From a virus: DNA of 64,000 nt. The DNA is taken from IMG/VR virus record IMGVR_UViG_3300021185_003351, positions 108,974 to 172,973 of that record; one strand, written 5' to 3'. Below, in pieces: positions 17,293-37,815 of this stretch; within the stretch, counting starts at the first letter, position 1; each line of letters begins with the position of its first letter. The notes under the pieces were generated by a model, which was given only the letters and a program-made list of their open reading frames with translations, ran no database searches and was not told the origin of the DNA. The position numbers were made by a program, and so were the translations under genes.

Positions 17293-17295
17293 AAA

Positions 17296-21507: not shown

Positions 21508-22193
21508 AACCAGCAATAGTAATTTATACACATACAGACTATAGTGATATATGGACTCCTTTATTTTCACGTATAAAAAAATATATGAATTCATATAAAG
21601 TTAATATATTTGTTAATCAAGAACACGAATTAATACCAACAGAATATAATATTATAACGTATGATTCTAAATTAATTTATACAGAACGATTGAAATCATG
21701 CTTAGAACAATTAAAAGATGAACTTATCTTATTTCTTCATGAAGACATGATATTATATGATGTACCATTACATGAAGAAATAAGTAGGTTATCAAAATTA
21801 TTTGATTCAAATGATTTGAGTAGTATTAAGTTAATTTATGTAAAAGATGATGATTATCCTAGTTATGTAGATGACAAATTAATATATAATAATTCTTCAA
21901 AATTTTCTATACAGCCTACTATTACAACAAAATCATATATGTTGGAATTAACTACAAAATATAAATTAAACATATGGGATTTCGAAGCAGCAATTGACAA
22001 TTCAGGAAACGATTTTATGTATAAAACCGGTAATGAAATTTTACGTGGAATGTATCATTGTGATAGTATAATATTTCCGTATATAGCAACCGCTATTGTA
22101 AAAGGTAAATGGAATGAAAGTGAATATAAAAATGAATTAACTGATATATTTACTGAGTTTAATATTGATAAAACAATTCGTGGAGTAGTATGA
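21498..22193 (+). CDS. Putative GT-A-like protein
   Basis: YSDIW, ILFLHED, IWDFE, IVKGKW; context. Confidence 0.5.
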   Translation: MGVKPAIVIYTHTDYSDIWTPLFSRIKKYMNSYKVNIFVNQEHELIPTEYNIITYDSKLIYTERLKSCLEQLKDELILFLHEDMILYDVPLHEEISRLSKLFDSNDLSSIKLIYVKDDDYPSYVDDKLIYNNSSKFSIQPTITTKSYMLELTTKYKLNIWDFEAAIDNSGNDFMYKTGNEILRGMYHCDSIIFPYIATAIVKGKWNESEYKNELTDIFTEFNIDKTIRGVV

Positions 22194-23554
22194 TAAAACT
22201 AATAATATTTGATTTAGATGGAGTTTTAGTAGAAGCTAAAAATATACATTATGATGCTTTAAATGAAGCATTAGGTGATAATTATTTTATTAGTTGGAGT
22301 GAACATTTATCTATATATGATGGATTAAAAACCAATCAAAAATTAGAAATATTAAGTGAAAGAAACGGATTACCAGAGACAAAACACACAGAAATATGGA
22401 ATCATAAACAAAAAATAACATTAGAAAAATTAAAACAATTAAAACAAAATAATATTCTTATCAAATTAATGTCTAATTTAGTAGATAACGGATATAAAAT
22501 TGCAGTTTGTTCTAATTCAATTAGAAAAACAGTATTAACAGTTTTATCGAAATTAGGTATTATGGAATTTATGGACTATATTATATCAAACGAAGATGTT
22601 GAAAATAGTAAGCCACACCCTGAAATGTATTGGAATGCTATTTCTAAAATGAAATGTTTGCCAGAAGAGACTCTCATTGTAGAAGATTCTCCATATGGAC
22701 TATTGGCAGCTTCTAGATCTAAATCACATATATTACGAGTAAAAAACACAAAAGAGACTAATTTAAAAAATATAAATAATAAACTAAGGCAAATAGAAAT
22801 GGGAGAACAACAAATTACGCCGGCTTGGAGAGATGAAACATTAAATGTTTTAATACCAATGGCTGGTGCTGGAAGTAGATTTCAACAAGCAGGATATACA
22901 TTTCCTAAACCACTTATCGAAGTTAAAGGAAAGCCTATGATTCAAGTTGTAGTTGAAAATTTAAATATTAAAGCAAATTTTATTTATGTAGTACAAAAAG
23001 AACATAGAGAAAAATATAACTTAGACACTTTACTTAATCTGATTACACCAAATTGTAAAATTGTTGAGGTAGATGGAATTACGGATGGAGCTGCGTGTAC
23101 TGCATTATTAGCAAAAGAATACATTAATTCTAAAAATCCTTTATTTTTTGCAAACTCTGATCAATTCGTAGAATGGGATTCAAATGAATTTTTATATAAA
23201 ATGAATGAAACAAATGCAGATGGTGGTATTGTATCATTTAAGGCAATACATCCTAAATGGAGTTTTGCAAAAGTAAATGAAATTGGATTAGTAACTGAAG
23301 TTGCAGAAAAAAATCCTATTTCAGATATTGCTACAGTTGGATATTATTATTGGAAACATGGTTCTGATTTTGTAAAGTATGCAGAAGATATGATTGAGAA
23401 AGATATCAGAGTAAACAATGAGTTCTATGTTTGTCCTGTTTTTAATCAAGCAATAAAAGATGGAAAAGAAATTCGTACCTTTGATATTCCTAAAATGTGG
23501 GGATTGGGTACACCAGAAGATTTAAAATTTTATTTAGAAAATTATGGAAAATAA
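22190..23554 (+). CDS. HAD phosphatase fused to a sugar nucleotidyltransferase-like (BcbE-type) domain
   Basis: FDLDGVL, KPHP, VEDS in the N-half; IPMAGAGSRF, PKPLI, NNEFYVCP, GLGTPEDL in the C-half. Confidence 0.9.
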   Translation: MIKLIIFDLDGVLVEAKNIHYDALNEALGDNYFISWSEHLSIYDGLKTNQKLEILSERNGLPETKHTEIWNHKQKITLEKLKQLKQNNILIKLMSNLVDNGYKIAVCSNSIRKTVLTVLSKLGIMEFMDYIISNEDVENSKPHPEMYWNAISKMKCLPEETLIVEDSPYGLLAASRSKSHILRVKNTKETNLKNINNKLRQIEMGEQQITPAWRDETLNVLIPMAGAGSRFQQAGYTFPKPLIEVKGKPMIQVVVENLNIKANFIYVVQKEHREKYNLDTLLNLITPNCKIVEVDGITDGAACTALLAKEYINSKNPLFFANSDQFVEWDSNEFLYKMNETNADGGIVSFKAIHPKWSFAKVNEIGLVTEVAEKNPISDIATVGYYYWKHGSDFVKYAEDMIEKDIRVNNEFYVCPVFNQAIKDGKEIRTFDIPKMWGLGTPEDLKFYLENYGK

Positions 23555-24236
23555 TATATACACACAAATGCAAATAAGGACGTATGCTCCTGGAACCTCT
23601 AATCATGATGAACATAATACAAATCCAGATTATTGGGATATACTTTTATCAGATTTAAAAGATAAAAATTTATGGGAAGATAAAGTAGCTTTAGACTTTG
23701 CATGCGGAAAAGGCAGAAATGTAACTAATATGTTATCTATATGTGATTGGAAACGTATTGATGGAATTGATATATCGCAATCTAATATTGATTTCTGTAA
23801 TGATCAATATGATATAAAAATATATCCTAGCAATTGGTATTGTAATAATGGTACTGATGTGTCTAATTTAAAATCTAACGAATATGATTTTATTATGTCT
23901 ACAATTGCACTACAACATATTCCTGTATACGACATTAGAAAATCATTAATTACAGATTTATTAAGAACATTGAAGCCTGGCGGACTATTTTCATTTCAAA
24001 TGGGATACGGTGAAGGATTAGATTCTCCAATTGGCCCTAGAAGTGCATATTATGATAATACATATGACGCCACTAATACTAATTCAGCACATGATGTTAG
24101 AGTACACAATGAACAAGATGTTATTGAAGATTTAAGTACGATAGGATATAATAATATAACAACTATTGTTAGACCTTCATATTCTGATAGTGGACATGAG
24201 AAATGGATTTATATAAAAGCATATAAACCAATATGA
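23544..24236 (+). CDS. Class I SAM-dependent methyltransferase
   Basis: LDFACGKGR, GIDIS, LQHI, LKPGG. Confidence 0.9.
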   Translation: MENNIYTQMQIRTYAPGTSNHDEHNTNPDYWDILLSDLKDKNLWEDKVALDFACGKGRNVTNMLSICDWKRIDGIDISQSNIDFCNDQYDIKIYPSNWYCNNGTDVSNLKSNEYDFIMSTIALQHIPVYDIRKSLITDLLRTLKPGGLFSFQMGYGEGLDSPIGPRSAYYDNTYDATNTNSAHDVRVHNEQDVIEDLSTIGYNNITTIVRPSYSDSGHEKWIYIKAYKPI

Positions 24237-24658
24237 TTTTAATATCACATAGAGGAAATATTTCTGGAAAGATATCAAACAAGGAAAATAGTCCAGAATA
24301 TATAGTTTCAGCATTAACTAAAGGATATAATGTTGAAATAGATGTTTGGTATGATAATGGATATTGGTTAGGTCATGATGAACCTATGTATAATATAGAT
24401 AAAGATTTTTTACTAAATGATAAATTTTGGTGTCACGCAAAAAATGGAAAAGCTTTATATCATATGTTACAAGATGATATACATTGTTTTTGGCATCAAG
24501 ATGATGATTTTACATTAACTTCCAATAACTTTATTTGGACTTATCCTAATAAATTATTATATTATAATAGTATATGCGTATTACCAGAATTAGGTATTAA
24601 TGGAGATATTGATATTTGCTCTGGAATATGTAGTGATTTTATTGAAAGATATTCATGA
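24233..24658 (+). CDS. Small GDPD/PLC-like phosphodiesterase
   Basis: ISHRGN, EN, VEIDVW, LGHD, WCHAKN, GICSD. Confidence 0.8.
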   Translation: MILISHRGNISGKISNKENSPEYIVSALTKGYNVEIDVWYDNGYWLGHDEPMYNIDKDFLLNDKFWCHAKNGKALYHMLQDDIHCFWHQDDDFTLTSNNFIWTYPNKLLYYNSICVLPELGINGDIDICSGICSDFIERYS

Positions 24659-24873
24659 AAAATTTAAAATCAACAGTTAATGAGCAAGGCGAAACAGTTA
24701 CTCAAATTATTCATTTTATTGATGGAGTTAAGAGAACATATCATGGTATTTTATCTGAAAGTATTAAACAAGGACAATTTACAAAAATGAAATGTAAAGA
24801 TGGTACTATGCTAATGATAAATGATAATAATGTTTTATGTATAGAAGTATTTAAAGAAGATGATAATAGGTAA
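24655..24873 (+). CDS. Hypothetical protein
   Basis: Coupled ORF, 72 aa. Confidence 0.6.
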   Translation: MKNLKSTVNEQGETVTQIIHFIDGVKRTYHGILSESIKQGQFTKMKCKDGTMLMINDNNVLCIEVFKEDDNR

Positions 24874-25369
24874 CGGCAGTATAGCGTCAGTTTTAAAAGA
24901 AATAGATACTCCAGATTTAATATTTTTTGCATCTGGTGTTAGTGATAGTTCTTGTACAGACGAATTTGAATATCAAAGAGAACGTAACTTAATGCTAACA
25001 GTCCCATATAATAAACATATAGTATATTTTTCTAATTTAGGAGTCTACTATAAAAATGATAGATATACTCAACATAAAATAGATACTGAAGAATTTATTA
25101 GAAACAATTATAACAGTTATACTATTGTTCGAATCGAAGTTTGCGAATGGGTTTCAACACCAACTACAATATTAAATGTATTTAAAAATCAATTAAAAAA
25201 TGATATCGAGCCAGTAATACATGATACTACAAGATATGTTCTAAGTGTCAAAGAATTTTTATATTGGATATCATTAATAAAACCAAGCATAAAAAATGAA
25301 ATGAATGTTTTAGGTAGAAAAATGAAAATTTCAGAAATAGTTCAAGAAATAAAAGATAATAAACTATGA
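24860..25369 (+). CDS. Short NAD-dependent epimerase/dehydratase-like protein
   Basis: MIIGNGSIA, FFASGVSDS, YFS, YTQHK (YxxxK). Confidence 0.75.
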   Translation: MIIGNGSIASVLKEIDTPDLIFFASGVSDSSCTDEFEYQRERNLMLTVPYNKHIVYFSNLGVYYKNDRYTQHKIDTEEFIRNNYNSYTIVRIEVCEWVSTPTTILNVFKNQLKNDIEPVIHDTTRYVLSVKEFLYWISLIKPSIKNEMNVLGRKMKISEIVQEIKDNKL

Positions 25370-26283
25370 TAAATGTAAAGATACATTATTTAATTATGCC
25401 ATGGCAAATTGATTATGCACAACAATCATATATACAATTTAAAAAATCAAAGTATTATTTATCAGATGATGTTAATATTACAATTGATACTCATTTAAAT
25501 CTTTCTAGTTTTATAATTGATTGGAACAATACCAAAATTCCTAAACAATACTTTATAGATAAATTTAAAAGTTTAGAACCATTATTATCTGATTATACTC
25601 ATAATTCAATAATATATGATGGACAAGATAATTATGGATTGTTTGATATGCAAAAAGCTGCAATTGGTAATTATGATTATTATATACCAGTTTGTCCAGA
25701 TATATATTTTTCAGAAACATTATTATATTATTTAATTGAATCAGCTAGAATAGTCACAAATAAATATTTTGTTATAACGCCAGAAATTCCTAAAATGTGG
25801 GATGCATCATGGGATGTATTAACAAGTAAACAATATATTAATACAGACAGAAGTAGTTGGATAACTTCAGATATATTTGACATACGACATGATACTAAAA
25901 CATTAAATAACGAAAGAAAATTAGATGTTGTTAATCAACACAAATGGGCTATATGGTTTGATTTATATAATAAAGAATTTTATGAAAATCTATGTCCATT
26001 ACATGATGATTGGATAGGATATGGCCCATGGGACTGGTATTCAAATATGTTATCGCAACATGCAAAGAATATAGGAGTTGATATGCAACAATTTGTTTTG
26101 CGTGGAGAAATAATTAGTGAATATCAAACAGGTCCATTGCGGGATATTGGATTTGATGAACATTACAAAAAATATTTTAATATTAAAACTGGCGCTAAGA
26201 ATCAAAGAGATTTATTTGAAAAAAATATGAATTTACATTTAGAACGTGGTATGAATATGTTAAAAGAAAAGAATATTATATGA
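25366..26283 (+). CDS. Putative GT-A-like protein
   Basis: DYYIPVCPDIYF, GYGPWD; context. Confidence 0.5.
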   Translation: MINVKIHYLIMPWQIDYAQQSYIQFKKSKYYLSDDVNITIDTHLNLSSFIIDWNNTKIPKQYFIDKFKSLEPLLSDYTHNSIIYDGQDNYGLFDMQKAAIGNYDYYIPVCPDIYFSETLLYYLIESARIVTNKYFVITPEIPKMWDASWDVLTSKQYINTDRSSWITSDIFDIRHDTKTLNNERKLDVVNQHKWAIWFDLYNKEFYENLCPLHDDWIGYGPWDWYSNMLSQHAKNIGVDMQQFVLRGEIISEYQTGPLRDIGFDEHYKKYFNIKTGAKNQRDLFEKNMNLHLERGMNMLKEKNII

Positions 26284-27260
26284 AAATAGCATTCATAACA
26301 GAAATGGGATTTGAAGGTTATATTGAACAATCACATCCTAATATGAGAACTGAATTTGCTTGGATGTATGCATTACATTCAAATCATATACCATTGTCTA
26401 AATATAATGAAGTATCTGATTATGATCATGTATTTATAATATTTCCAAAAGGAAAATTAAATGTTAACGCTGAAGGAAGTGTTATTGGAAATCAATCTAA
26501 TCCAGCATCTCACTACTTAAAATCTAATCTTATTCAAAAATTAAAGTCATGTAATAAAAAAGTATATTATGTTCAAGAAGGACCAACCTGGTGGTTTACC
26601 GATTATGAAGTAGAAGATCAAATATTATTTTATAACATGTTATCTTCTGTGGATGCTATATATGCTCACAATGAATATGATATGAAATTTTATCGAGGAC
26701 TTATTCCAGGACAAAATGTTCAATGTATTTCTACTTTAATGATTGAAGAATGGATACAAGAGATTGTTCCTCAGACAGAAAACAAAGTTTTAATTGGAGG
26801 AAATTTTGCTAGATGGTATAATGGATTTCAAAGTTATTTGGTTGCATCTGAGTTTGGAGTTCCAATATGGACTCAAGAATCTCATGCAAAAAGAATCAAT
26901 GAGGATCAAATAGAAAATTTAAATCATTTTCCTAGGATGTTGTGGAATCAATGGATGCAAGAAGTTTCTAAATTCAAATATGCAGTTCATTTAATGCCAA
27001 CTATCGCTGCAGGAACATTTAGTTTAAATTGTGCGTATTTTGGAATTCCTTGTATAGGAAATAACAATGTCGACACTCAAAAAATATGTCATCCAGAATT
27101 ATGCGTCGACGTTGATGATATAGAATCAGCTAGACAATTAGCAATTCGATTACGAGATGATTCTGAATTTTATAAAAAGTGTAGCATGGAAGCAAATAAA
27201 AACTATAAACAATATTATAATATAAAAGCATGGAAGAAAAAAATATACGACACACTGTAA
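26280..27260 (+). CDS. GT-B fold glycosyltransferase-like protein
   Basis: MKIAF start; AAGTFSLNCAYFGIPCIG C-terminal motif. Confidence 0.7.
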   Translation: MKIAFITEMGFEGYIEQSHPNMRTEFAWMYALHSNHIPLSKYNEVSDYDHVFIIFPKGKLNVNAEGSVIGNQSNPASHYLKSNLIQKLKSCNKKVYYVQEGPTWWFTDYEVEDQILFYNMLSSVDAIYAHNEYDMKFYRGLIPGQNVQCISTLMIEEWIQEIVPQTENKVLIGGNFARWYNGFQSYLVASEFGVPIWTQESHAKRINEDQIENLNHFPRMLWNQWMQEVSKFKYAVHLMPTIAAGTFSLNCAYFGIPCIGNNNVDTQKICHPELCVDVDDIESARQLAIRLRDDSEFYKKCSMEANKNYKQYYNIKAWKKKIYDTL

Positions 27261-28285
27261 TAGTACCTAGTTATAATACTCTAGAGCATTTAAAAAATAC
27301 ATATAAAAGTTTACTGTTATATAGTAACAATGTAGATATTATTTTAATTGATGATGCATCAAAAGATGGAACTGCAGAATGGTTTAAAACTATCAAAGAA
27401 TTAAATGTTAAAACTATAGTTTCATCAACTAGAAAAGGACATACATATTGGTATGATGAAGGTATGAGATTGTCAAAAACAGATATAGTTTCAATTTTAC
27501 ACTCAGATATGATAATAGGTCCATGTTATTTTGAAAATATGTTACGTCATTTAGAACCCGGTCGAGTTGTTTGTTCTACAAGAATTGAACCTCCAATACA
27601 TCCTGCAGGAAAAGAAAAGATTGTTAAAGATTTTGGTGATGAAGCTGACACTTTTAATTGGAATGCTTTTGAATCATTTTGTAATGAGGAACGAACATTA
27701 AAATTTGGTGAAACTACTAGAGGTATATTTGCTCCATGGATGCTTTATAAGGAAGATCATCTATCGATCGGAGGACATGATCAAGGATTTGCACCATATG
27801 GGTATGAAGACTCTGATATATTCAATAGATGGATATTAGCTGGTTATGAAATGATACAAGCTCGTGATTCATTATGTTATCATATGACTTGTAGAGGACA
27901 TCGATGGAATGCTGGTGTAGGAATAGAAAACTCAGATTATCAAGAAACTATGAATAATGGTCGTAGACATTTTTTAAAGAAATGGGGGCATTGGATTAAA
28001 AATGATGAATATCAATATCCAATTATTAGTCCCGTTTATAATAAAAAACTAATAATTAATAATATTAATTCAGGATTAGAACAATTAAAAGACTGGTTTA
28101 ATGACGGAGAAGATATTATAGTTGAAATTGACGGAACTACATTTACTCAACAAGATTTTCAATATATATCTAATCTAAATGATATCATAGCAGATAGTGG
28201 CGAAATTGGAACATTTGAGCTAGGAAATATCAAAGTTACTATTAATAATATTAAAGATTACTCAAAAGACCTAATTTTTTTATAG
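27230..28285 (+). CDS. GT2 glycosyltransferase
   Basis: VIVPSYN, LIDDASKDGT, LHSDM, GYEDSD. Confidence 0.9.
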   Translation: MEEKNIRHTVIVPSYNTLEHLKNTYKSLLLYSNNVDIILIDDASKDGTAEWFKTIKELNVKTIVSSTRKGHTYWYDEGMRLSKTDIVSILHSDMIIGPCYFENMLRHLEPGRVVCSTRIEPPIHPAGKEKIVKDFGDEADTFNWNAFESFCNEERTLKFGETTRGIFAPWMLYKEDHLSIGGHDQGFAPYGYEDSDIFNRWILAGYEMIQARDSLCYHMTCRGHRWNAGVGIENSDYQETMNNGRRHFLKKWGHWIKNDEYQYPIISPVYNKKLIINNINSGLEQLKDWFNDGEDIIVEIDGTTFTQQDFQYISNLNDIIADSGEIGTFELGNIKVTINNIKDYSKDLIFL

Positions 28286-28324: not shown

Positions 28325-29242
28325 ATGTTATTAAAGAAAGGATCAAAAGGTCCAGAAGTTAAAAAACTACAAGAAGCATTAGGATTATCTGCAGATGGAA
28401 TATTTGGTGGAGGTACTAAATTAGCTGTAATAAAATTTCAATCAAATAATGGATTAAATGCAGATGGTATAGTAGGACCTTCAACATGGGAAGTTATTGG
28501 TATCGATACAGATCAAACTAGTGCAGCAGAAGAATCAGAATATACAACTAAAGACGGTTTAGTTATAGATAGAGAATATCTAGATAAAGACGAATATGTA
28601 AGAGATTATGGTAAAATAGAACCATTAGGATTCTTTATTCATCACACTGCAGGATGGGATAATCCTTATAAAACAATACGTGGATGGAACCGAGATACAA
28701 GAGGTAGAGTAGCTACACAATATTGTATTGGCGGCACTAATGTAAAAGGTAAAGCAGCACCCCATGACGGACAAGTAGTAGAATGTTTTCCAAATAACTA
28801 TTTAGGATGGCATTTAGGTAAAGTAGGTGGATTTGATATTTCTAAATTTTCAGGAGGTGTTGAATTAAATAATTTTGGTTATTTAAAAAAGAAAGATGGT
28901 AAGTATTATACTTATGTTAACACGGAAGTAAAACCAGAATATGTTTGTGATTTAGGATATAAATTTAGAGGCCATCAATATTGGCACGCTTATTCCGACA
29001 AACAAATAGAAAGTTTAAGACTGCTTATTTTACATTTAAAAGATATTTATCCTAAAATGGACTTAGAAAATGGTATTCCTAAAATGTTAAAAGAAGGAGT
29101 ACACCCAAAAGAAGCATTTGAATTTAATGAAGATGCTTATAATGCAAAACAATTTGGGTTATGGTCACACACATCTGTAAGAAAAGACAAGTTTGATTGT
29201 TTCCCTCAACCAGAATTAGTAGAAATGTTAAAAAATATATAA
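28325..29242 (+). CDS. Endolysin: PG-binding domain + N-acetylmuramoyl-L-alanine amidase
   Basis: LKKGSKGPEVKKLQ...ADGIVGPSTW PG_binding_1; IHHTAG, WH, SH...KFDC amidase_2 Zn ligands. Confidence 0.9.
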   Translation: MLLKKGSKGPEVKKLQEALGLSADGIFGGGTKLAVIKFQSNNGLNADGIVGPSTWEVIGIDTDQTSAAEESEYTTKDGLVIDREYLDKDEYVRDYGKIEPLGFFIHHTAGWDNPYKTIRGWNRDTRGRVATQYCIGGTNVKGKAAPHDGQVVECFPNNYLGWHLGKVGGFDISKFSGGVELNNFGYLKKKDGKYYTYVNTEVKPEYVCDLGYKFRGHQYWHAYSDKQIESLRLLILHLKDIYPKMDLENGIPKMLKEGVHPKEAFEFNEDAYNAKQFGLWSHTSVRKDKFDCFPQPELVEMLKNI

Positions 29243-29264: not shown

Positions 29265-29552
29265 ATGAATAAGTTACTTCTAAAATTAAGAAGGAAGATT
29301 ATGGCCTTTAGAGACATGTTTAAAGACGATAATGATATTAATGAGAAAAATGTAGTTGGATTTGCTGCATTTGCAGTAATGGTAATATTTGCAATTGCAG
29401 ATATTGTTACTGGATATATGGGAGAACCATTACATGTAAATGAATTCATATATAATTCGTTTTTATGGATTACCTTAGGTAGTTTTGGTATAGCTGAAGC
29501 CGGTAAGATATTAGGAAAATCAAACTCAGATGATGATCATGAAAATATTTAA
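29265..29552 (+). CDS. Two-TM membrane protein, holin candidate
   Basis: Directly follows the endolysin; two hydrophobic helices. Confidence 0.55.
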   Translation: MNKLLLKLRRKIMAFRDMFKDDNDINEKNVVGFAAFAVMVIFAIADIVTGYMGEPLHVNEFIYNSFLWITLGSFGIAEAGKILGKSNSDDDHENI

Positions 29553-32500
29553 GTATTTATTAATTACTCTATTTAGTCTTATTGTATACAATAGTAATGC
29601 CCAAAATTTAACATTCGGTTGCACAGATCCAGCTGCAGCTAATTATGATCCAAATGCAGACCAACCATTAGAAGGATTAGTTGAAGCATCATCATGTAAT
29701 TTTGTTTGGTTCCAAAATTATGTAGGAATCAATGAAGCATTTTATAATGATTACAGTAGCGAATTTGCAGTTGGTACTAAAATTACATTTGCTGGACAAG
29801 AATATTGGATAGATGCTGTAGCATTTCATAGCAATTGTAATGCTGGAGTAGCGTTAGTATATGTTGCTAATTCTCCTGGCCAAGCAGATGGCAATGAATG
29901 GACTATAGGTGGAATGCTTAACGGTCCTATCTTTTCAGGATCTCCATGGAGCATAACAGAATGTTTTTATAATCCTGGCTGTATGGATGATGATTATATA
30001 GAATATGATCCAAATGCAGATTGGGATGATGGTAGTTGTCAAACTTTAAAAGTATTCGGATGTACAAATCCTAATTCTATTAATTATAATCCTTGGGCTA
30101 ATACTGATGACGGTTCTTGTATAGCTGATTTAAATTGTGGATTTGATTCAATAGAAATTAAAGTAACAATAAAAGTAGATAATTGGCCCGGCGAAACTAG
30201 TTGGTATTTACAACATACCAATCCAACTCAAAATTTAACAGATACAGTTTTTTATGCTCAAAGAGGAACTTATGGTTGGGGACAACAAGGACAAACAATT
30301 GTAACTAAATTTTGCGCTCCAGCTGGTCCAAATCATTTATTACAATTTGTATTGCAAGATTCATATGGTGATGGTATAAGAGGTTCTCAACCACCAACTA
30401 ATAGTGGATTTTGTTTAGTTGAAAATATGTCTTGTCCGGATACTATATTTTATATGTCTGAAGGAGATGCCGATTTTGGTTATATAACTACTAGTGACCC
30501 AAATTATTGGAGTCAAAGAGAACAATATTGCGGTGGACCTCTAATAGACGGATGCACAGATCCATCATATCAAGAATATGATTCATTAGCAACAAATAAT
30601 GATGGCAGTTGTCAAAATCTTCATGTATATGGTTGTATGGATACGTCGGCAATTAATTACAATCCTAATCATACTGCGTGGGATAATATTGAAACATGCG
30701 AATATAGAATTATATTAGAAGACGATGGTGGAGATGGTTGGGGAGAAAGCTTTGTTGGAATTAAACAAGGAGATTCTTTATGGGACTTTAGATTAGGTCC
30801 TGGTACATATGTAGATACATTTTATTTACATTTTATAGTAGAAGATAATCCAAGCCTACAAGAAGAAGTTGAACTGTATTATTTTGAGATAGGTGACGGT
30901 CAACAAAATTCTCAACAAATAGATATTCAAACAATACAGAACTCAGTTAAAATAGAAAATGATTATGGTATTTTAATACATGAAGGAAATTTTCCATGGG
31001 CTAATGGCAATAAGCTCAAAAAGTTTAATACTGTAGCAGATGTTTATACCGCAATACCATTTTGTGGGTATGTATGTACTCCTAAGATATATGGTTGTAT
31101 GGACTCAACATCATTAAATTATAATCCAGACGCCAATGTTGATAATGGTACCTGTATTCCTATTATATATGGATGTACTAATCCATTAGCATTTAATTAT
31201 GATTCAACTGCAACAATAGATGATGGAAGTTGTGTTGCCGTAGTAAATGGGTGCATGGATCCAAATGCATGGAACTATAATTCAAATGCTAACACAGATG
31301 ATGGAAGCTGTATTTATCTAGGATGTACAGATGTAACTGCTTGTAACTATGATTCAATAGCAAATGTTGATAATGGTGGTTGTATGTACCCTGCTCAATA
31401 TTATGATTGCAATTACGTTTGTTTAGAAGACACAGATGGAGATGGTATTTGCGATTCATTAGAGATACCAGGATGTATGAATCCACTTTCAATAAATTAT
31501 AATCCTAATGCAACTGATGACGATGGTTCATGTATACCTTATATATATGGTTGTACCGACTCAACCGCATTTAATTATAATCCATTGGCAAACACAGATG
31601 ATGGTAGCTGTATTCCTATTGTAACGGGGTGTACAGACCCTACCATGTTCAATTATGATCCAAATGCTAACACAGATAATGGTAGTTGTATACCTATTGT
31701 ATACGGTTGCACAGACCCAACATCATTTAATTATAATCCTAATGCTAACACAGATAATGGATCTTGCGTTCCATATATTTACGGCTGTATGGATTCAACT
31801 TCATTGAACTATGATCCAAATGCAAATGTTGATAACGGAACTTGTATACCATTTATTTATGGTTGTATGGATAATACAATGTTTAATTATGATTCAACTG
31901 CAACTGTTGATAATGGCTCATGTATACCATTTATTTATGGTTGTACTGATTCGACAGCATTTAACTATGATCCTTTAGCTAATACCGATAATGGAACTTG
32001 TATTCCTGTAATATATGGTTGTACAGATCCAAGTGCATTTAATTATAATCCTTTAGCTAATACAGAAGATTTTAGTTGTATACCTGTAATATATGGTTGT
32101 ACAGATTCATTAGCTGTAAATTATGATCCTGCAGCAAATGTAGATAATGGTTCTTGTATAACTGCAGTTCCTGGTTGTACAGATCCAAATGCTTATAATT
32201 ATAATCCTAATGCAAACGTTCCTGACTCAGCTTCATGTTTATATGATGCCGGTTGTATTACCGGACCAGGTAATCCATATTGGTTAAATGATGATTGCTA
32301 TGCTTGGGTCATTAATATAGATCCTTATTGTTGTACGGTAGGATGGGATGCGAATTGTCAAAACACATATGACTATTGTGCTGCTAATAGTGGATGGGTT
32401 GGTATTGAAGATTTGGTATATGATGGAGCAGTAGCAATTTATCCAAATCCAACCACCGGAGAAATAAATATAGCAAGTTCAAGATTTAAAAATATTATTG

Positions 32501-32646
32501 TAACTATATATTCAGTTTCCGGTCAGATAGTTGTTAATGAAACAAATGATAATGTTATTGATATAAGTCACTTAGAAGATGGAGTTTATTTTATGAACGT
32601 GAAAGTAGGGGAATTAACTTATATTAGAAAGGTAATCAAACAATGA
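29530..32646 (+). CDS. Secreted Cys/Asp-rich repeat protein with a T9SS type-A C-terminal sorting domain
   Basis: Signal peptide ...SNA|Q; 19 GC(T/M)(D/N)..NY....DGSC repeats; C-terminal IYPNPTTG...IYSVSGQ...LEDGVYFMNV...RKVIKQ. Confidence 0.9.
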   Translation: MMIMKIFKYLLITLFSLIVYNSNAQNLTFGCTDPAAANYDPNADQPLEGLVEASSCNFVWFQNYVGINEAFYNDYSSEFAVGTKITFAGQEYWIDAVAFHSNCNAGVALVYVANSPGQADGNEWTIGGMLNGPIFSGSPWSITECFYNPGCMDDDYIEYDPNADWDDGSCQTLKVFGCTNPNSINYNPWANTDDGSCIADLNCGFDSIEIKVTIKVDNWPGETSWYLQHTNPTQNLTDTVFYAQRGTYGWGQQGQTIVTKFCAPAGPNHLLQFVLQDSYGDGIRGSQPPTNSGFCLVENMSCPDTIFYMSEGDADFGYITTSDPNYWSQREQYCGGPLIDGCTDPSYQEYDSLATNNDGSCQNLHVYGCMDTSAINYNPNHTAWDNIETCEYRIILEDDGGDGWGESFVGIKQGDSLWDFRLGPGTYVDTFYLHFIVEDNPSLQEEVELYYFEIGDGQQNSQQIDIQTIQNSVKIENDYGILIHEGNFPWANGNKLKKFNTVADVYTAIPFCGYVCTPKIYGCMDSTSLNYNPDANVDNGTCIPIIYGCTNPLAFNYDSTATIDDGSCVAVVNGCMDPNAWNYNSNANTDDGSCIYLGCTDVTACNYDSIANVDNGGCMYPAQYYDCNYVCLEDTDGDGICDSLEIPGCMNPLSINYNPNATDDDGSCIPYIYGCTDSTAFNYNPLANTDDGSCIPIVTGCTDPTMFNYDPNANTDNGSCIPIVYGCTDPTSFNYNPNANTDNGSCVPYIYGCMDSTSLNYDPNANVDNGTCIPFIYGCMDNTMFNYDSTATVDNGSCIPFIYGCTDSTAFNYDPLANTDNGTCIPVIYGCTDPSAFNYNPLANTEDFSCIPVIYGCTDSLAVNYDPAANVDNGSCITAVPGCTDPNAYNYNPNANVPDSASCLYDAGCITGPGNPYWLNDDCYAWVINIDPYCCTVGWDANCQNTYDYCAANSGWVGIEDLVYDGAVAIYPNPTTGEINIASSRFKNIIVTIYSVSGQIVVNETNDNVIDISHLEDGVYFMNVKVGELTYIRKVIKQ
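31090..32238 (+). repeat. Tandem ~78-bp (26-aa) coding repeats GCTD..AFNY.P.ANTD.GSCIP.IY
   Basis: 14 of the 19 repeats lie in this block; nucleotide-degenerate. Confidence 0.9.
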
Positions 32647-33767
32647 TTAGACATTTATTATTAATATTAACTTTAGTACCAACTATTTTATTTAGCCAAT
32701 TCACAGTAACTACTAGTACTAAATCTTGGGATAAAGAAAAAGAAAAATGGAAGCCGTTTGAAGACTTTGACAAAAAATTTAAGAAGGCAATTAAATTTGC
32801 TACTTTCTATGGCGCATTTAATGGTAACAATAGTATTGCAGATGTAGACGTATTTTCAGTTAATACAGGACAATTAATTACTAAAACAAATGAAACTCCA
32901 TTTGATTATTCCATTGTAGCCGGCGTTAGAAAAATTGCAAGATTTGGATATGAAAATAGACAATCTGTATTTTATAATGGAACAGAACATTCGTATGCAG
33001 ATGCAGCTACAATAGGTAAGGTATCTGGATTTGAATTTTTATTTGAAGTAGATTGGAAGCGAAGATTTGGAAATACCTTTTTAGATCAACAGCATTTTTT
33101 AAGATATGTAGCTGATCAATGGATTATAAAAGTAGAATATATGCAGCAAGGTTTTGCTGATATAAAATATTTTGAGTCTTCACAAAGATATAGACAAAAA
33201 GTTGGAGATAAATTTTCTTGGAATATAGGTATAGTTCAAAGAATTTCAGAACCATATGGATATAATCCATTAGAAGAATTTATATTACCAAATGGTAGTT
33301 TACATTACACTTCATTAGCATTACAAGAAGGATATAATGTAGATTTTTTACCTGGAGGCGAAATAAATTATTTGAATCCAGAAGGAGAAGTAGTTGCAGA
33401 TAATAGTATAATTTGGGAAGAAGTAGTTATACCTCAAGTATTATCTGATTATGTGGAAAGAAAGAAAAATGAAATACCACAACAATGGAATCATTCGTTG
33501 GTAATGGGATATGATTTTTATCATTATACTAAAACATTTTGGATACATTCTTGGGCAAGTGTAATGCCATTTCATTTAGAAACAGGTACTTATGCTTATC
33601 ATAAATTTATAGCACCTAAGCAAACATGGATAGACTTTGGTGGAGGATTCATTCTAGGAAATAGGATAAACAAACATTTAGGTATATTTATAGAGGGCAA
33701 GTATAACAAGTATTGGAATAGAAGATGGCATGATTTTAGTGTGGGATTGAATTACATAATTTTTTGA
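32643..33767 (+). CDS. Putative outer-membrane beta-barrel protein
   Basis: Signal peptide ...LFS|Q; amphipathic aromatic strands; C-terminal DFSVGLNYIIF BAM-type signal. Confidence 0.65.
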   Translation: MIRHLLLILTLVPTILFSQFTVTTSTKSWDKEKEKWKPFEDFDKKFKKAIKFATFYGAFNGNNSIADVDVFSVNTGQLITKTNETPFDYSIVAGVRKIARFGYENRQSVFYNGTEHSYADAATIGKVSGFEFLFEVDWKRRFGNTFLDQQHFLRYVADQWIIKVEYMQQGFADIKYFESSQRYRQKVGDKFSWNIGIVQRISEPYGYNPLEEFILPNGSLHYTSLALQEGYNVDFLPGGEINYLNPEGEVVADNSIIWEEVVIPQVLSDYVERKKNEIPQQWNHSLVMGYDFYHYTKTFWIHSWASVMPFHLETGTYAYHKFIAPKQTWIDFGGGFILGNRINKHLGIFIEGKYNKYWNRRWHDFSVGLNYIIF

Positions 33768-34072
33768 GAGATAAAATGGCAACAGAATTAAATGAAGACA
33801 CAGGTTTTAGAATAAGTATAAAAAGCTTAGTTGGAATAGGTGCCGGAATGGCAACAATTATTAGTATGTGGTTTGTATTACAAGCAGATATAGCAGAAGC
33901 AAAAGAGTTACCAGCACCTTTACCACCAGATGTTACTAGAATGGAATTTGATATGAAGGATCAATTGATTCGTCAAACAATTATGACTACACAAAAAGAT
34001 GTAGAAGAAGTAAAAGAAGATATGAAAAGAATTGAGGAAAAGTTAGATAAGTTGATTGAAAAAAGGAGATAA
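33764..34072 (+). CDS. Single-TM protein with C-terminal coiled coil (start may be ATG 33776)
   Basis: Hydrophobic helix, Pro linker, heptad tail. Confidence 0.65.
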   Translation: MRDKMATELNEDTGFRISIKSLVGIGAGMATIISMWFVLQADIAEAKELPAPLPPDVTRMEFDMKDQLIRQTIMTTQKDVEEVKEDMKRIEEKLDKLIEKRR

Positions 34073-34074
34073 TC

Positions 34075-34401
34075 ATGAAAATGTTTTTAACAATAATAGG
34101 GTTATTTGTATCAACACTATGTTTTTCACAAATACAAGTTATACAATTTAATGCAAATTGGAATAATGCTAATTCAGTAACTTGGTTAAATAAATTATCA
34201 GATTGTAAGACAGGTCAAGTAGACATTGTAACTGATAAAGCATCACAAGCAAAATATAAAATAATAGTAGTTCCGACCATAATAGTTTTCAACCAAGGCG
34301 AAGAAATAAAAAGATATCAAGCAAATATCATGATGCAAATAGACGCCAAGTTAGAAGATATTCAAACAGTTGTAGATGAAACGGTAATGGAATCTTTCTA
34401 A
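34075..34401 (+). CDS. Secreted thioredoxin-fold protein lacking CxxC
   Basis: Signal peptide ...CFS|Q; FNANWN replaces WCxxC; VPTIIVFNQGEEIKR. Confidence 0.7.
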   Translation: MKMFLTIIGLFVSTLCFSQIQVIQFNANWNNANSVTWLNKLSDCKTGQVDIVTDKASQAKYKIIVVPTIIVFNQGEEIKRYQANIMMQIDAKLEDIQTVVDETVMESF

Positions 34402-34856
34402 TGTATGAATATAAATGCACAGTAAATAAAATAGTAGACGGAGATACGGTAGACGTAGATATAGATTTAGGATTTGGGATAGTACTAACTGACGAACGAG
34501 TTAGAATTATGGGAATCGATACTCCAGAATCAAGAACAAGAAATAAAATTGAAAAACTTTTTGGGTTAGCAGCAAAGAAACGATTAAAAGAACTTCTTTC
34601 AAAACATTGTGTTCTTAAAACAGAAATCAATAAAGACGGCGAAGATATGAAAGGAAAGTTTGGAAGAGTACTAGGAGATTTTGTAGCAGCAGATGGTAGA
34701 CTAGTAACTGACATAATGATAGAAGAAGGCCATGCAGTTGCATATCATGGGCAATCCAAAGATGACGTTCAAGTTGCACACTTAGAAAATAGAAAAAAAT
34801 TATTAGCAGAAGGTATTATACTTCAATCGGATATCAATAAAGTTTCAAAAAAATAG
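34401..34856 (+). CDS. Thermonuclease (SNase-like)
   Basis: IVDGDTVD, RVRIMGIDTPESR, GKFGRVLG. Confidence 0.9.
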   Translation: MYEYKCTVNKIVDGDTVDVDIDLGFGIVLTDERVRIMGIDTPESRTRNKIEKLFGLAAKKRLKELLSKHCVLKTEINKDGEDMKGKFGRVLGDFVAADGRLVTDIMIEEGHAVAYHGQSKDDVQVAHLENRKKLLAEGIILQSDINKVSKK

Positions 34857-35271: not shown

Positions 35272-37815
35272 ATGAGTAATAAATCATATCTAAAAAAATT
35301 AGTTTTCGAAGAATATAAAAAACAATCTAAGAAATTGTATCTAGAAAAGTTAATATTAGAAGAATATCAGAAGATTATACAAGAACAAACAGATACAGAA
35401 AAATTATCTCGTAACACTTTAGAGTTATGGTGGAATAAGGAAAATTATGGCAAATTCGATCCACCGGTGGATGCTAAAGGAGAACAAGCAGAAGAAGGAT
35501 ATGATATTTTAATGAATGAGTTAAACGGAGAATGGCCAGCTTATCCAGGATCCCAATGGAAAAAACAACCTGGAATTAGAATTATTCTCGCAAAAGACTT
35601 AATTAAATATTTAGGATTGACCCCTAAAATAAAAAAACAATCAAAAGGATTTGAAGTTACTCCGGGAGAAAAAGATGCTCCTGCATTAAAAATAGAATCA
35701 AAAGATATTATATTCTATCCTAATGGTATATGTACTTTAGAGTCGACTGTAGAGGATATGACAACCCAAAATGAGGTGCATTGGTATATAAGTCCAGATG
35801 AAAATGGAAAGGAAGTAATTACAATAAATCTTTCTAGAAATCAAGAAGATAACAAAGTTGTAGGAGCTCTTTATAATCGTAGCGGAAATATTATATTAGA
35901 GAAGCCAGAAGAAATTTCATATAAAAATTATACATTTGATAAAGTACAATCCGGATTAGATTGGGCAGGAATGGCCCCGGTGATAGGAGCACCTATAGAT
36001 GTACTTAACACAATAGGATATATTTTTAGAGGGAAATACTATTCAGCTCTTTTCTCTGCGTTAGGTATAGTACCGTTTATTGGAGATTCTTTTAGTGCTT
36101 CAACTAAAGGATTAAAAAAGTTTATAAAAGCCACCGGATTAAGTAAAGCAAAATATAATAGATTAGCAAAAGATGCATTTTATGGAAATGTTGATTCAAT
36201 ACAAGAATTTTATGAGCTAATATCTAAAAGTAAAAAGACTCGTGAGGCCATAACTGGTGTTACTGGAATCTCTAGAAGAAAATTTCTACAAACAATTAAA
36301 AAATATACGGATCCAGTTGAAATATCATTAAAAGAAATAAAAGATTTATTAAAATCAGACAAGTTTTTTGTTCCAGATGCTATAGAAAATTCAGCTAGAA
36401 AAGCAGTTGATTTATTTGAAAAATTTCTTTTTAATAATAAAAAAGCTTTAGAAAATTTAGATGAATTATATGACGCACAATTAAAATTTAAAAAATTTAA
36501 AATTCGACCTAGTATAGAATTTCTAGACGCTACTAAAAAACTAGCAACAGGAAACATGAAGTATCTGCAGCAGATTATGAAAAAGTTACCAACTGCAGCT
36601 CAATTAATAGCTGGAATAAAAACTGGAGGATTATCTGCAGGTGCAGAAGCTGGTATTAGAGCAGTATTTAAAGGAGTATATAACCCTGAGAAAATAGCTA
36701 AATTAAGTAAATTATATAAAAGGGAAGTTTTTGGAAGACTTGCTAAAAATGATCAAGCAATAGAAGTAATAGGTAAACTATTACCATATGAAGCATTTAA
36801 AGGGATATTTCAACCAGAAGAATTAAGAAACATAGCAACAAAATATTATCAAAAAAATCCAAAAGCTTTACTCTCAGATTTTCCAAATGGTTATAAAGAA
36901 TTACAAGCAAGTATGAAAATTGAAAAAAATCTTCAAAAGCTTTTTTCAAGATCTGATTTTTGGAAGAATTCTGATCTAATAGATCAATTGAAAGACACTT
37001 TGTCCTCCGGTAAAAGTGGCACTGACAAATTATTGCAAATGGCTGCTGAAAGTAAGAATCCTGCATTACAGGTATTTTTTAATAATAAACAATGGCAATT
37101 TGAAAATATATTTAAAGGAAGTTTGGATTTTTTCTTTAATTTTGGTACTGAATATAAAACATTTTTATCAAATTATGTAAAGCTTCGAAAGAATTTCTTT
37201 GGTTGGAAAACCTTAGACATATGGTGGAATGAATTAACAGAATTAGCAGGACGTCTTAATCTAGGACGAGCAGAAACAGCAGATCCAGATTCTATAATTG
37301 TTCCTATTTTATTTGGCATGCTAGATATTACACAAGGTAAACCGCTCGGGACTACAAAAGATAAAATAGGTAGAAGTAGCAAACTATCTATTCAGATATC
37401 TGACATTCTAGATACGTGGTTTGAATTTTTTACAGGACGATTAAACACCATACCTGGATTTTCACAACTTGGAACATATATTTATGATTTTATATACAAA
37501 TATGGAATAAAACAACTAGTTGATGATCCAGATGGAGGAATTAAATTTAGACAATTTAAAATACCAAAAGAATCATACAACTATTTGTATAATGAAGCAA
37601 AAAATGCAAATCCAGGAAAACCTATTACAGTCGATGATATGATGAAAATTTTTGATTCTAAACATTGGACTAATATTCCACCTGAAATAAAACCACAATT
37701 TGAACCATTTAGAACAACTCTTCAAAAGGCTTTACAAGATCAACTTATTTATAATCCTCCTCCGGAGGAAGAATATGAAGATCAAAAAGATTCAATGAAA
37801 AATTATCAACGATAA
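35272..37815 (+). CDS. Large hypothetical protein with a pre-toxin-TG-like segment; putative virion protein
   Basis: LDWAGMAPVIGAPIDVLN...ALGIVPFIGD; N-terminal LKKLVFEEY/LEKLILEEY; class L motif at 35240. Confidence 0.65.
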   Translation: MSNKSYLKKLVFEEYKKQSKKLYLEKLILEEYQKIIQEQTDTEKLSRNTLELWWNKENYGKFDPPVDAKGEQAEEGYDILMNELNGEWPAYPGSQWKKQPGIRIILAKDLIKYLGLTPKIKKQSKGFEVTPGEKDAPALKIESKDIIFYPNGICTLESTVEDMTTQNEVHWYISPDENGKEVITINLSRNQEDNKVVGALYNRSGNIILEKPEEISYKNYTFDKVQSGLDWAGMAPVIGAPIDVLNTIGYIFRGKYYSALFSALGIVPFIGDSFSASTKGLKKFIKATGLSKAKYNRLAKDAFYGNVDSIQEFYELISKSKKTREAITGVTGISRRKFLQTIKKYTDPVEISLKEIKDLLKSDKFFVPDAIENSARKAVDLFEKFLFNNKKALENLDELYDAQLKFKKFKIRPSIEFLDATKKLATGNMKYLQQIMKKLPTAAQLIAGIKTGGLSAGAEAGIRAVFKGVYNPEKIAKLSKLYKREVFGRLAKNDQAIEVIGKLLPYEAFKGIFQPEELRNIATKYYQKNPKALLSDFPNGYKELQASMKIEKNLQKLFSRSDFWKNSDLIDQLKDTLSSGKSGTDKLLQMAAESKNPALQVFFNNKQWQFENIFKGSLDFFFNFGTEYKTFLSNYVKLRKNFFGWKTLDIWWNELTELAGRLNLGRAETADPDSIIVPILFGMLDITQGKPLGTTKDKIGRSSKLSIQISDILDTWFEFFTGRLNTIPGFSQLGTYIYDFIYKYGIKQLVDDPDGGIKFRQFKIPKESYNYLYNEAKNANPGKPITVDDMMKIFDSKHWTNIPPEIKPQFEPFRTTLQKALQDQLIYNPPPEEEYEDQKDSMKNYQR

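What the first reader, a model, noticed from the sequence alone, without database searches (positions are those of the whole stretch)
29530..32646. Phage-encoded cargo of the host type IX secretion system
Seen: a Sec signal, 19 Cys/Asp-rich GCxD repeats (putative disulphide/Ca-binding stalk), interleaved beta-rich domains and an intact type-A T9SS CTD. It lies directly after the endolysin/holin genes. Known: this CTD routes Bacteroidota proteins through the T9SS to the cell surface. Inference: the phage uses the host T9SS to display a 1000-aa protein on the infected cell, possibly for superinfection exclusion, adhesion to new hosts, anti-grazing, or jamming the translocon and gliding machinery.
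Basis: partly seen in the sequence, partly recalled or inferred. Interest (0 to 1): 0.82.

Follow-up and report, generated by a model that had tools for sequence, protein, structure and literature searches.

The report
Phage T9SS cargo in envelope cassette
A large uncultured marine phage of a Flavobacteria-like host encodes a cysteine-rich stalked protein with both export tags of the host's type IX secretion system, and it always sits with three other phage envelope genes, so the phage probably re-dresses the infected cell's surface, though neither export nor purpose has been tested.

Summary
ORF 29530-32646 (likely start 29539) encodes 1038 aa. It has a signal peptide, exactly 19 GC[TM][DN]..NY..D.GSC repeats, beta-sandwich domains and a C-terminal type-A T9SS sorting domain (TIGR04183 49.5 bits, cut-off 23).

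The record is a complete 173-kb T4-like virus genome. Chimeric assembly is excluded, because the gene recurs in the same context on many independent contigs.

New here: the cargo is one of four co-occurring phage genes. The others are a 12-stranded outer-membrane barrel, a single-TM coiled-coil protein and an exported thioredoxin fold without CxxC. All four were present in 36 of 36 IMG/VR loci with enough flank, in three gene orders.

The stalk repeats match giant surface proteins of small-genome marine Flavobacteriales (83 of 201 genomes). The cysteine-rich domain before the sorting tag was found only on a phage-like contig (1 of 401 genomes). The N-terminal heads evolve fastest.

Best reading: a T9SS-exported, surface-displayed adhesin-like protein, possibly held by the phage barrel. 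Its purpose is unknown.

Phage T9SS cargo was already reported (Bellas 2020). This scan had also noted a similar cysteine-rich cargo in a four-gene envelope cassette on another genome (identity not checked).

The parts
28325..29242 (+). Endolysin (PG_binding_1 + Amidase_2). It is the upstream neighbour and not a constant member of the cassette.
   Evidence: Pfam PF01471 52.8 bits and PF01510 28.5 bits; PHROG endolysin families.
29265..29552 (+). 95-aa membrane protein, a holin candidate. It overlaps the cargo start and is present only in the closer relatives.
   Evidence: Hydrophobic segment at aa 27-54. No Pfam or PHROG hit. Conserved in L003, L005 and L010 but replaced by other small genes elsewhere.
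29530..29601 (+). Cargo: Sec signal peptide (aa 1-24; likely true start Met4 at 29539).
   Evidence: Hydrophobic core and SNA/Q site. All homologues listed start with a comparable signal peptide.
29617..31092 (+). Cargo: variable head region. It holds repeat 1, domain A (aa 57-149), repeats 2-3, beta-sandwich B (aa 203-340), repeats 4-5 and beta-sandwich C (aa 391-521).
   Evidence: AF2 model mc922902f0f2d. Only weak fold matches: best Z 5.9 to the Ca-dependent CBM 2xhh, then C2/PLAT-like domains. This is the least conserved part, 11-42% identity to distant homologues.
31093..32235 (+). Cargo: stalk of repeats 6-19 (26 aa, two Cys each), with a TSP3-like DTDGDGICD insert at aa 621-647.
   Evidence: Similar arrays occur in 83 of 201 Flavobacteriales genomes, at up to 68% identity.
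32236..32397 (+). Cargo: cysteine-rich 'PYWLND' domain (aa 903-956). It is the most conserved part of the protein.
   Evidence: About 70% identity even to homologues 45% identical overall. Present in 108 of 121 top homologues by strict motif, and the other sequences printed are mostly variants. Found in 1 of 401 Flavobacteriales genomes, on the phage-like contig only.
32431..32646 (+). Cargo: type-A T9SS C-terminal sorting domain (aa 968-1038) and stop codon.
   Evidence: TIGR04183 49.5 bits, PF18962 50.4 bits. 8glk_D E 3.8e-6. Invariant Y-P-N-x-T, G-x-Y and V-I-K motifs.
32643..33767 (+). 374-aa outer-membrane 12-stranded beta-barrel. It has a signal peptide and a terminal Phe, and its start overlaps the cargo stop (ATGA).
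   Evidence: AF2 model at pLDDT 67.8. VIA-align Z 14.3 to the EstA barrel, 13.1 to KdgM and NanC, 13.0 to NalP, 12.5 to Tsx. No Pfam or PHROG family. 3724 homologues.
33764..34072 (+). About 98-aa bitopic inner-membrane protein: short cytoplasmic N-terminus, one TM, Pro-rich linker, periplasmic helix. Likely start is the ATG at 33776.
   Evidence: TM at aa 21-41. Alignment A4 has 75% mean column identity. At least 8000 metagenomic homologues, all unnamed.
34075..34401 (+). 108-aa exported thioredoxin-fold protein with FNAxWNxAN in place of WCxxC (no redox cysteines).
   Evidence: Pfam Thioredoxin E 2.4e-4, below the cut-off. Alignments A3 and A5 show no CxxC in any member and no conserved lipobox Cys.

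Best explanation
The gene encodes a phage-made substrate of the host's type IX secretion system. SHOWN BY SEQUENCE: it has a Sec signal peptide and a genuine type-A CTD. Between them lie fast-evolving beta-sandwich heads, a disulphide-rich 26-aa repeat stalk of the kind found in surface proteins of marine Flavobacteriales, and a conserved cysteine-rich domain not found in sampled Flavobacteriales genomes. No enzyme or toxin domain was found. The gene co-occurs (36 of 36 loci with enough flank) with three other phage genes: a 12-stranded outer-membrane barrel, a bitopic inner-membrane coiled-coil protein, and a periplasmic thioredoxin fold without CxxC. INFERRED: during infection the protein crosses the inner membrane through Sec. 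It then folds and forms its disulphides in the periplasm. The host PorV/SprA translocon recognises its CTD and puts it on the cell surface. There the conserved cysteine-rich, membrane-proximal domain is held by the phage barrel, so the stalk presents variable lectin-like heads outwards. The likely purpose is to remodel the infected cell's surface. It could mask or compete with receptors, giving superinfection exclusion and protecting progeny from debris. It could instead stick the infected cell to particles or other cells. Which of these applies cannot be decided from sequence.
For: CTD above curated cut-offs and similar to solved F. johnsoniae substrate CTDs. CTD motifs invariant across homologues 45% identical overall. 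Signal peptides in all homologues inspected. Complete T4-like phage genome with a single CTD gene. The closest cultured relative by capsid protein infects Flavobacterium (59.7% identity). The same gene set appears on independent contigs from ENA, JGI and NCBI at 40-79% cargo identity. At least 556 IMG/VR viral contigs carry the barrel. All 36 loci with at least 5 kb on both sides carry cargo, coiled-coil and Trx-like genes within 8 kb on the same strand, in three cyclically permuted orders. Conservation gradient, as median identical residues per 100 positions: cargo N-terminus 23.7, cargo C-terminus 48.6, barrel 64.2, coiled-coil 67.0 (per domain). Stalk repeats occur in 83 of 201 Flavobacteriales genomes, including on 617-kb and 723-kb contigs. 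The cysteine-rich domain occurs in 1 of 401. The barrel fold is supported. An upstream 13-kb glycan-synthesis island fits a surface-remodelling region.
Against: There is no experimental evidence of secretion, and the host is unknown. No tool here gave support for contact between the barrel and the cargo. The barrel shows no similarity to the known T9SS partner barrels PorP/SprF (hhalign probability 3%). It resembles PorV less than generic 12-stranded barrels (Z 7.5 against 13-14). Distant homologues of the barrel occur in bacteria without a cargo gene, so it may have an independent function such as a channel. Part of the co-occurrence may reflect shared ancestry of related phages rather than selection. 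Lysis genes lie close by in several contexts, so a lysis-related role is not excluded.
Confidence: 0.6

Rival explanations
1. The cargo is secreted by the T9SS but released into the medium. It would act as a soluble lectin-like or aggregating factor. The barrel, coiled-coil and Trx-like genes would serve another envelope function, for example a nutrient or nucleoside channel.
For: Many type-A cargos of Flavobacteriia are released after CTD cleavage (own knowledge). The barrel resembles the KdgM, NanC and Tsx channels as closely as it does autotransporter barrels. Distant barrel homologues occur in bacteria without a cargo gene.
Against: Strict co-occurrence of all four genes despite rearrangement. 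Cargo stop and barrel start overlap. The most conserved cargo domain lies next to the CTD, where an anchor would bind.
Confidence: 0.15
2. The cassette serves lysis or envelope disruption. The coiled-coil protein would be a spanin-like or antiholin-like factor working with the barrel. The cargo would occupy or jam the T9SS and outer membrane late in infection.
For: The cassette follows the endolysin and a holin-like gene here. Lysozyme, M15 peptidase or holin-like genes lie within a few genes in L003, L005, L006, L007 and L008. The coiled-coil protein has the size and topology of an i-spanin or of T4 RI.
Against: The Trx-like protein has no conserved lipobox cysteine, so it is not an o-spanin. 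A roughly 1000-aa protein with hypervariable heads is not expected for a lysis function. The coiled-coil protein is far more conserved (75% column identity) than spanins usually are (own knowledge).
Confidence: 0.1
3. The protein is a virion component, such as a fibre or decoration protein, and the 'CTD' is only an Ig-like beta-sandwich reused for binding.
For: Two copies of a similar repeat occur in a gene annotated 'virion structural protein' of Synechococcus phage S-CAM3. T9SS CTDs have an Ig-like fold (own knowledge).
Against: A cleavable Sec signal peptide is conserved in all homologues, and virion proteins assemble in the cytoplasm. The CTD keeps the T9SS-specific motifs and its C-terminal position. 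The gene lies far from the structural module, with the capsid gene about 86 kb upstream. No PHROG structural family matches.
Confidence: 0.03
4. The gene is host DNA wrongly joined to a phage contig, or a recent host-derived passenger without function.
For: The stalk repeats are common in Flavobacteriales genomes.
Against: Same context on independent assemblies from different samples and sources. GC content is uniform across the region. The cysteine-rich domain was not found in 400 other Flavobacteriales genomes searched. The ORF and its CTD motifs are intact at 40% divergence.
Confidence: 0.01

Closest known systems
Phage-encoded T9SS type-A cargo of 'Cryophage' (Bellas et al. 2020, Nat Commun, PMC7468147)
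   Same: An uncultured Bacteroidota phage encodes proteins ending in type-A T9SS sorting domains. The cargo genes vary strongly between phage variants. The authors also proposed hijacking of the host T9SS and a role in competition or superinfection.
   Different: The Cryophage cargos are an endoglucanase, a GH39 and a PA14 protein. The present cargo has no enzyme domain and is a repeat stalk with beta-sandwich heads. No dedicated barrel, coiled-coil and Trx-like partner genes were mentioned in the passages read. The present family is marine and occurs on hundreds of viral contigs.
T9SS sorting-domain proteins on gut phage contigs (de Jonge et al. 2019, PMC6949934)
   Same: T9SS sorting domains occur on predicted phage ORFs, one of them together with carbohydrate-binding BACON repeats.
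   Different: Different passenger domains, a different habitat, and no conserved partner cassette reported.
Type-B CTD cargo with a cognate PorP/SprF barrel (e.g. SprB/SprF of Flavobacterium johnsoniae; own knowledge)
   Same: A large repetitive surface adhesin gene is directly followed by a gene for a dedicated outer-membrane barrel.
   Different: The CTD here is type A, not type B. The barrel has no detectable relation to PorP/SprF (no Pfam hit; hhalign probability 3%).
Repeat-rich giant surface proteins of small-genome marine Flavobacteriales
   Same: The same 26-aa two-cysteine repeat at up to 68% identity over 230 aa. At least one such ORF in MAG G001 (1036 aa, contig C27) also ends in a TIGR04183 CTD.
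   Different: They lack the cysteine-rich 'PYWLND' domain found in the phage family and the partner cassette. They are often much longer (up to 7517 aa).
Type Va autotransporter beta-domains (EstA, NalP) and 12-stranded channels (KdgM, NanC, Tsx)
   Same: The predicted fold of the partner barrel is 12 strands, preceded by a helix.
   Different: No sequence family match. The barrel chain carries no passenger domain. This is fold similarity only.

Membership tests
T9SS type-A CTD cargo (TIGR04183 / PF18962) | C-terminal domain of about 70-100 aa that matches the family model above its curated cut-off and ends the protein | tested here: met
   TIGR04183 49.5 bits (cut-off 23) and PF18962 50.4 bits (cut-off 27), at aa 970-1038 of 1038. 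54.7 bits in the six-frame genome search.
T9SS type-A CTD cargo (TIGR04183 / PF18962) | N-terminal Sec signal peptide | tested here: met
   Hydrophobic core at aa 1-20 and an SNA/Q site. Judged by hydropathy and inspection, as no dedicated predictor was available.
T9SS type-A CTD cargo (TIGR04183 / PF18962) | Conserved CTD motifs (PxP near the start, GxY, and a basic hydrophobic C-terminal strand) | tested here: met
   Y971-P-N-x-T975, G1018-x-Y1020 and V1035-I-K1037 are invariant in 14 homologues.
T9SS type-A CTD cargo (TIGR04183 / PF18962) | The producing cell has a T9SS | tested here: inconclusive
   The host is unknown. The closest cultured phage infects Flavobacterium. A Flavobacteriales MAG that carries a copy of the cassette on a binned contig has 42 TIGR04183 and 6 PorP/SprF matches. 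Binning is weak evidence of host.
T9SS type-A CTD cargo (TIGR04183 / PF18962) | Secretion depends on T9SS genes | not testable with these tools
   This needs expression in wild type against gldN, sprA or porV mutants.
T9SS type-B CTD cargo (TIGR04131) | Match to the type-B CTD model | tested here: not met
   The NCBIfam scan at E up to 1 lists TIGR04183 and two T9SS equivalogs, but not TIGR04131.
PorP/SprF partner barrel (PF11751), for the downstream 374-aa protein | Sequence or profile similarity to PorP/SprF | tested here: not met
   No Pfam hit at E up to 0.01 and none in divergent homologues. hhalign of A1 against five PorP/SprF proteins gives probability 3%, on the signal peptide only.
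PorV / FadL-type T9SS shuttle, for the downstream 374-aa protein | 14-stranded FadL-like fold similar to PorV | tested here: inconclusive
   PorV (6h3i_F) scores Z 7.5, against Z 13-14 for 12-stranded barrels. The model has about 12 strands at pLDDT 67.8.
Thioredoxin (PF00085), for the 108-aa protein | CxxC active site | tested here: not met
   FNAxWNxAN replaces WCxxC in all ten members aligned. The Pfam score of 21.5 is below the cut-off of 23.5.
Two-component spanin, for the coiled-coil and Trx-like pair | The o-spanin is an outer-membrane lipoprotein with a lipobox cysteine | tested here: not met
   There is no conserved Cys at the end of the signal peptide; most members read ..ISQ or ..YSQ.

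The most novel reading that the evidence does not exclude
The four genes build a phage-specified surface organelle. The inner-membrane coiled-coil protein and the redox-dead thioredoxin fold would escort the 57-cysteine protein through the periplasm. The host T9SS would export it. The phage's own 12-stranded barrel would then capture its conserved cysteine-rich foot. The infected cell would thus carry host-mimicking stalks tipped with rapidly evolving binding heads. These heads would capture fresh host cells or particles, or fend off rival phages. Given the thousands of metagenomic homologues, this would be a widespread and so far undescribed way for marine phages to reprogram the Bacteroidota cell surface.
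Probability: 0.3. Interest if true: 0.85.

Novelty: new variant of a known kind. Interest (0 to 1): 0.62.

Why it matters
Flavobacteriia are major degraders of algal organic matter in the sea, and their surface proteins decide what they stick to and which phages can adsorb. Suppose an abundant group of large marine phages makes infected cells export a phage-designed adhesin through the T9SS and hold it with a phage-made outer-membrane protein. Infection would then change cell adhesion, aggregation and phage susceptibility before lysis, which bears on particle formation and phage competition. The cassette also offers a compact system for asking how T9SS cargo is retained on the surface: one cargo and three small partners. 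The cysteine-rich domain could serve as a marker for this phage group.

Tried and rejected
A complex prediction of the barrel (A1) with the cargo C-terminus (A7) gave no verdict (ipSAE 0.15, 0.56 and 0.00 against a mark of 0.32). It counts neither for nor against binding.

Fold searches with the cargo head model gave only weak, generic beta-sandwich matches (best Z 5.9; Foldseek best E 1.4e-4 with TM 0.15). No lectin, CBM or C2 assignment is made from them.

PorP/SprF identity of the barrel was rejected.

megablast of 20 kb of the window against 50,697 cultured phage records found nothing. tblastn of the barrel against the same records also found nothing. The cassette was therefore not found in any cultured phage of that collection. 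That includes Flavobacterium phage immuto, the closest relative by capsid protein.

The T4 late-promoter motif TATAAATA is not enriched (24 observed, 27 expected), so nothing is said about timing.

The exact-pattern scan of 185,579 species genomes found only two loci, both likely phage contigs binned into MAGs. The patterns were narrow, so the profile search is the better test.

Literature searches for a phage-encoded outer-membrane barrel in Flavobacteria phages found nothing relevant.

The Tenacibaculum phage Larrie paper mentions T9SS only for the host.
Full report
WHAT IS THERE

The window is the last 64 kb of a single-contig virus record of 172,973 bp that CheckV rates as complete. The record encodes a T4-type major capsid protein (PF07068, 256.5 bits). 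The closest cultured relative by that protein is Flavobacterium phage vB_FspM_immuto at 59.7% identity. GC content is about 30% throughout, with no break at the gene.

ORF 29530-32646 (+) is intact and gives 1038 aa. Homologues start at the equivalent of Met4, so the real start is probably 29539.

The protein reads, from the N-terminus:
- a signal peptide
- one degenerate repeat
- a 93-aa domain A
- two repeats
- beta-sandwich B
- two repeats
- beta-sandwich C
- fourteen more repeats, interrupted by a DTDGDGICD insert
- a 54-aa cysteine-rich domain
- a C-terminal sorting domain

The CTD passes both curated models: TIGR04183 at 49.5 bits against a cut-off of 23, and PF18962 at 50.4 against 27. 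It also aligns to the substrate CTDs solved from Flavobacterium johnsoniae, 8glk_D at E 3.8e-6. It is the only such domain in the phage genome. No enzyme, toxin or phage-structural family matches the rest of the protein.

IT IS A REAL PHAGE GENE

Homologues of 69-79% identity lie on independent contigs between the same neighbours. Homologues of only 40-44% identity lie on a 289-kb contig and a 72-kb contig that carry phage-typical genes, again with the same small set of neighbours. The same holds for four further contexts. It also holds for a 43-kb contig binned into a Flavobacteriales MAG. Host contamination or chimeric assembly is therefore excluded.

THE CASSETTE

Three genes always accompany the cargo.

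1. A 374-aa protein with a signal peptide and a terminal ...NYIIF strand. Its start overlaps the cargo stop. It has 3724 close homologues and no Pfam or PHROG family. An AF2 model (pLDDT 67.8) is a 12-stranded outer-membrane barrel preceded by a helix. Its best matches are the EstA barrel (Z 14.3), KdgM and NanC (13.1), NalP (13.0) and Tsx (12.5). PorV scores only 7.5.

2. A protein of about 98 aa with one transmembrane helix, a proline-rich linker and a periplasmic helix. It is very conserved, at 75% mean column identity. It has at least 8000 unnamed metagenomic homologues.

3. An exported thioredoxin-like protein of about 110 aa. FNAxWNxAN replaces the WCxxC site in every member, and no lipobox cysteine is conserved.

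I then tested co-occurrence systematically. HMMs were built from my alignments and run on the 80 fetched loci. All 36 loci with at least 5 kb on both sides of the barrel gene carry the cargo C-terminus, the coiled-coil gene and the Trx-like gene within 8 kb on the same strand. The gene orders are:
- cargo-barrel-CC-Trx in 31 loci, one of them with a second cargo gene
- CC-Trx-cargo-barrel in 3 loci
- barrel-CC-Trx-cargo in 2 loci

The set has therefore stayed together through rearrangements.

EVOLUTIONARY PATTERN

Across the loci, the median number of identical residues per 100 positions is 23.7 for the first 300 residues of the cargo. It is 48.6 for the last 140 residues of the cargo, 64.2 for the barrel, 67.0 for the coiled-coil protein and 46.6 for the Trx-like protein.

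Within the cargo, the cysteine-rich domain is the best conserved part, at about 70% even in homologues that are 45% identical overall. The heads fall to 11-42%. Repeat numbers range from 3 to 36. Some relatives carry MAM or CBM48-like head domains instead.

The stalk repeats are not a phage invention. A 255-aa stretch of them finds matches in 83 of 201 sampled Flavobacteriales genomes. Most of these genomes are 1-2 Mb, and the matches reach 68% identity in very long ORFs (1807 aa and a frame of 6635 aa), including ORFs on contigs of 617 kb and 723 kb. In MAG G001, one 1036-aa ORF has both the repeats and a type-A CTD.

In contrast, a profile of the cysteine-rich domain finds only the phage-like contig in 401 genomes of the same order. 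The phage protein thus combines a host-like stalk and export tag with a foot domain not found in the sampled host-order genomes and rapidly changing heads.

HOW IT MOST LIKELY WORKS

Shown: both export signals are present, their motifs are conserved over deep divergence, the passenger is non-enzymatic and modular, and the three envelope genes always accompany it.

Inferred: the protein is exported by Sec and folds with disulphide formation in the periplasm. The host T9SS recognises its CTD and displays it on the surface. I also think the conserved foot is held by the phage barrel. This would explain three things: why the foot and the barrel are the slow-evolving parts, why the two genes overlap, and why a phage would bring its own outer-membrane protein. 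This step is a hypothesis only.

The purpose is open. The options are receptor masking or superinfection exclusion, adhesion or aggregation, and competition with host cargo. The upstream 13 kb encode glycosyltransferases, UDP-GlcNAc 2-epimerase, a DegT aminotransferase, a sugar nucleotidyltransferase and a methyltransferase. The whole region therefore looks like a surface-remodelling block.

The Bacteroidota O-glycosylation sequon D[ST][AILVMT] (own knowledge) occurs 15 times, against 4.2 ± 1.9 in shuffles. This is partly because it sits inside the repeat consensus.

COMPARISON WITH WHAT IS KNOWN

Phage-encoded type-A T9SS cargo was described once, for 'Cryophage', and was called unique there (PMC7468147). 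T9SS sorting domains were also noted on gut phage contigs (PMC6949934). The general idea is therefore known.

I found no description of this family, of its cysteine-rich domain or of the four-gene cassette. No copy of the barrel was found in 50,697 cultured phage records.

The cargo-plus-barrel arrangement resembles type-B cargo with PorP/SprF. Membership fails, however: the CTD is type A, and the barrel is unrelated to PorP/SprF by Pfam and by profile-profile comparison.

Earlier notes of this scan describe a cysteine-rich T9SS cargo in a four-gene envelope cassette in another marine phage genome, which may be the same cassette, and the same envelope trio in this genome. My results agree with the latter and were obtained independently here.

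VERDICT

This is a new variant of a known kind. It is of real interest because of its abundance, its strict gene partnership and its host-mimicking design. Export, anchoring and purpose all remain to be shown.

Noticed in passing
window 15374-28285: A glycan-synthesis island of about 13 kb lies directly upstream of the endolysin. It holds GT1, two or three GT2 (one GtrB-like), UDP-GlcNAc 2-epimerase, a DegT aminotransferase fragment, a HAD+nucleotidyltransferase fusion and a methyltransferase. Related phages carry different sugar genes at the same place (L003, L007).
   Followed up: partly
window 34401-34856: A staphylococcal-nuclease-like gene (PF00565, PHROG 452) follows the cassette here and in close relatives. 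In L007 it lies several genes further on.
   Followed up: partly
window 35272-37815: An 847-aa ORF with no Pfam or PHROG match is conserved downstream of the cassette in L003 and L005 (857-859 aa).
   Followed up: no
P0001, 15 sites (e.g. aa 525, 677, 755, 807): The Bacteroidota O-glycosylation sequon D[ST][AILVMT] occurs 15 times, against 4.2 expected (0 of 2000 shuffles reach it). It lies mostly inside the repeat consensus GC[TM]DST, so the stalk may be heavily O-glycosylated.
   Followed up: partly
L108 (G126:C1:238500-247500): A bacterial 1807-aa repeat protein on a 617-kb contig matches Pfam PF25721 'Phage T4 Y03C protein family' (34 bits, cut-off 27) through the same cysteine repeat. This links the repeat to a small T4 protein family. 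No type-A CTD was detected in its last 1010 aa.
   Followed up: no
L014 4569-6119 (Synechococcus phage S-CAM3, NC_031906.1): A gene annotated 'virion structural protein' carries two copies of a similar YGC.D..A.NYNP.AN...GC repeat. The repeat is therefore also used by cyanophages, whose hosts are not known to have a T9SS.
   Followed up: partly
L016 6001-7203: A distant homologue of the barrel (400 aa, 116 bits to the profile) sits among cellular genes (GAPDH, flavodoxin, PspC) without any cargo gene. The phage barrel therefore derives from, or is related to, an unnamed bacterial outer-membrane protein family.
   Followed up: partly
L010 (NZWA01000061.1) and L011 (CALBOT010000064.1): Contigs carrying the phage cargo gene (L010 with the whole cassette) are binned into public MAGs. 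One is a Flavobacteriales MAG. The other is a 3.8-kb contig in a Nitrosopelagicus (archaeal) MAG, which is probably a binning error.
   Followed up: partly
L006, L007, L012: In the more distant phages an extra membrane protein of about 113 aa (ICLTS... TM, ...DGTYDSIRYVKGG) is inserted between the coiled-coil and Trx-like genes.
   Followed up: no
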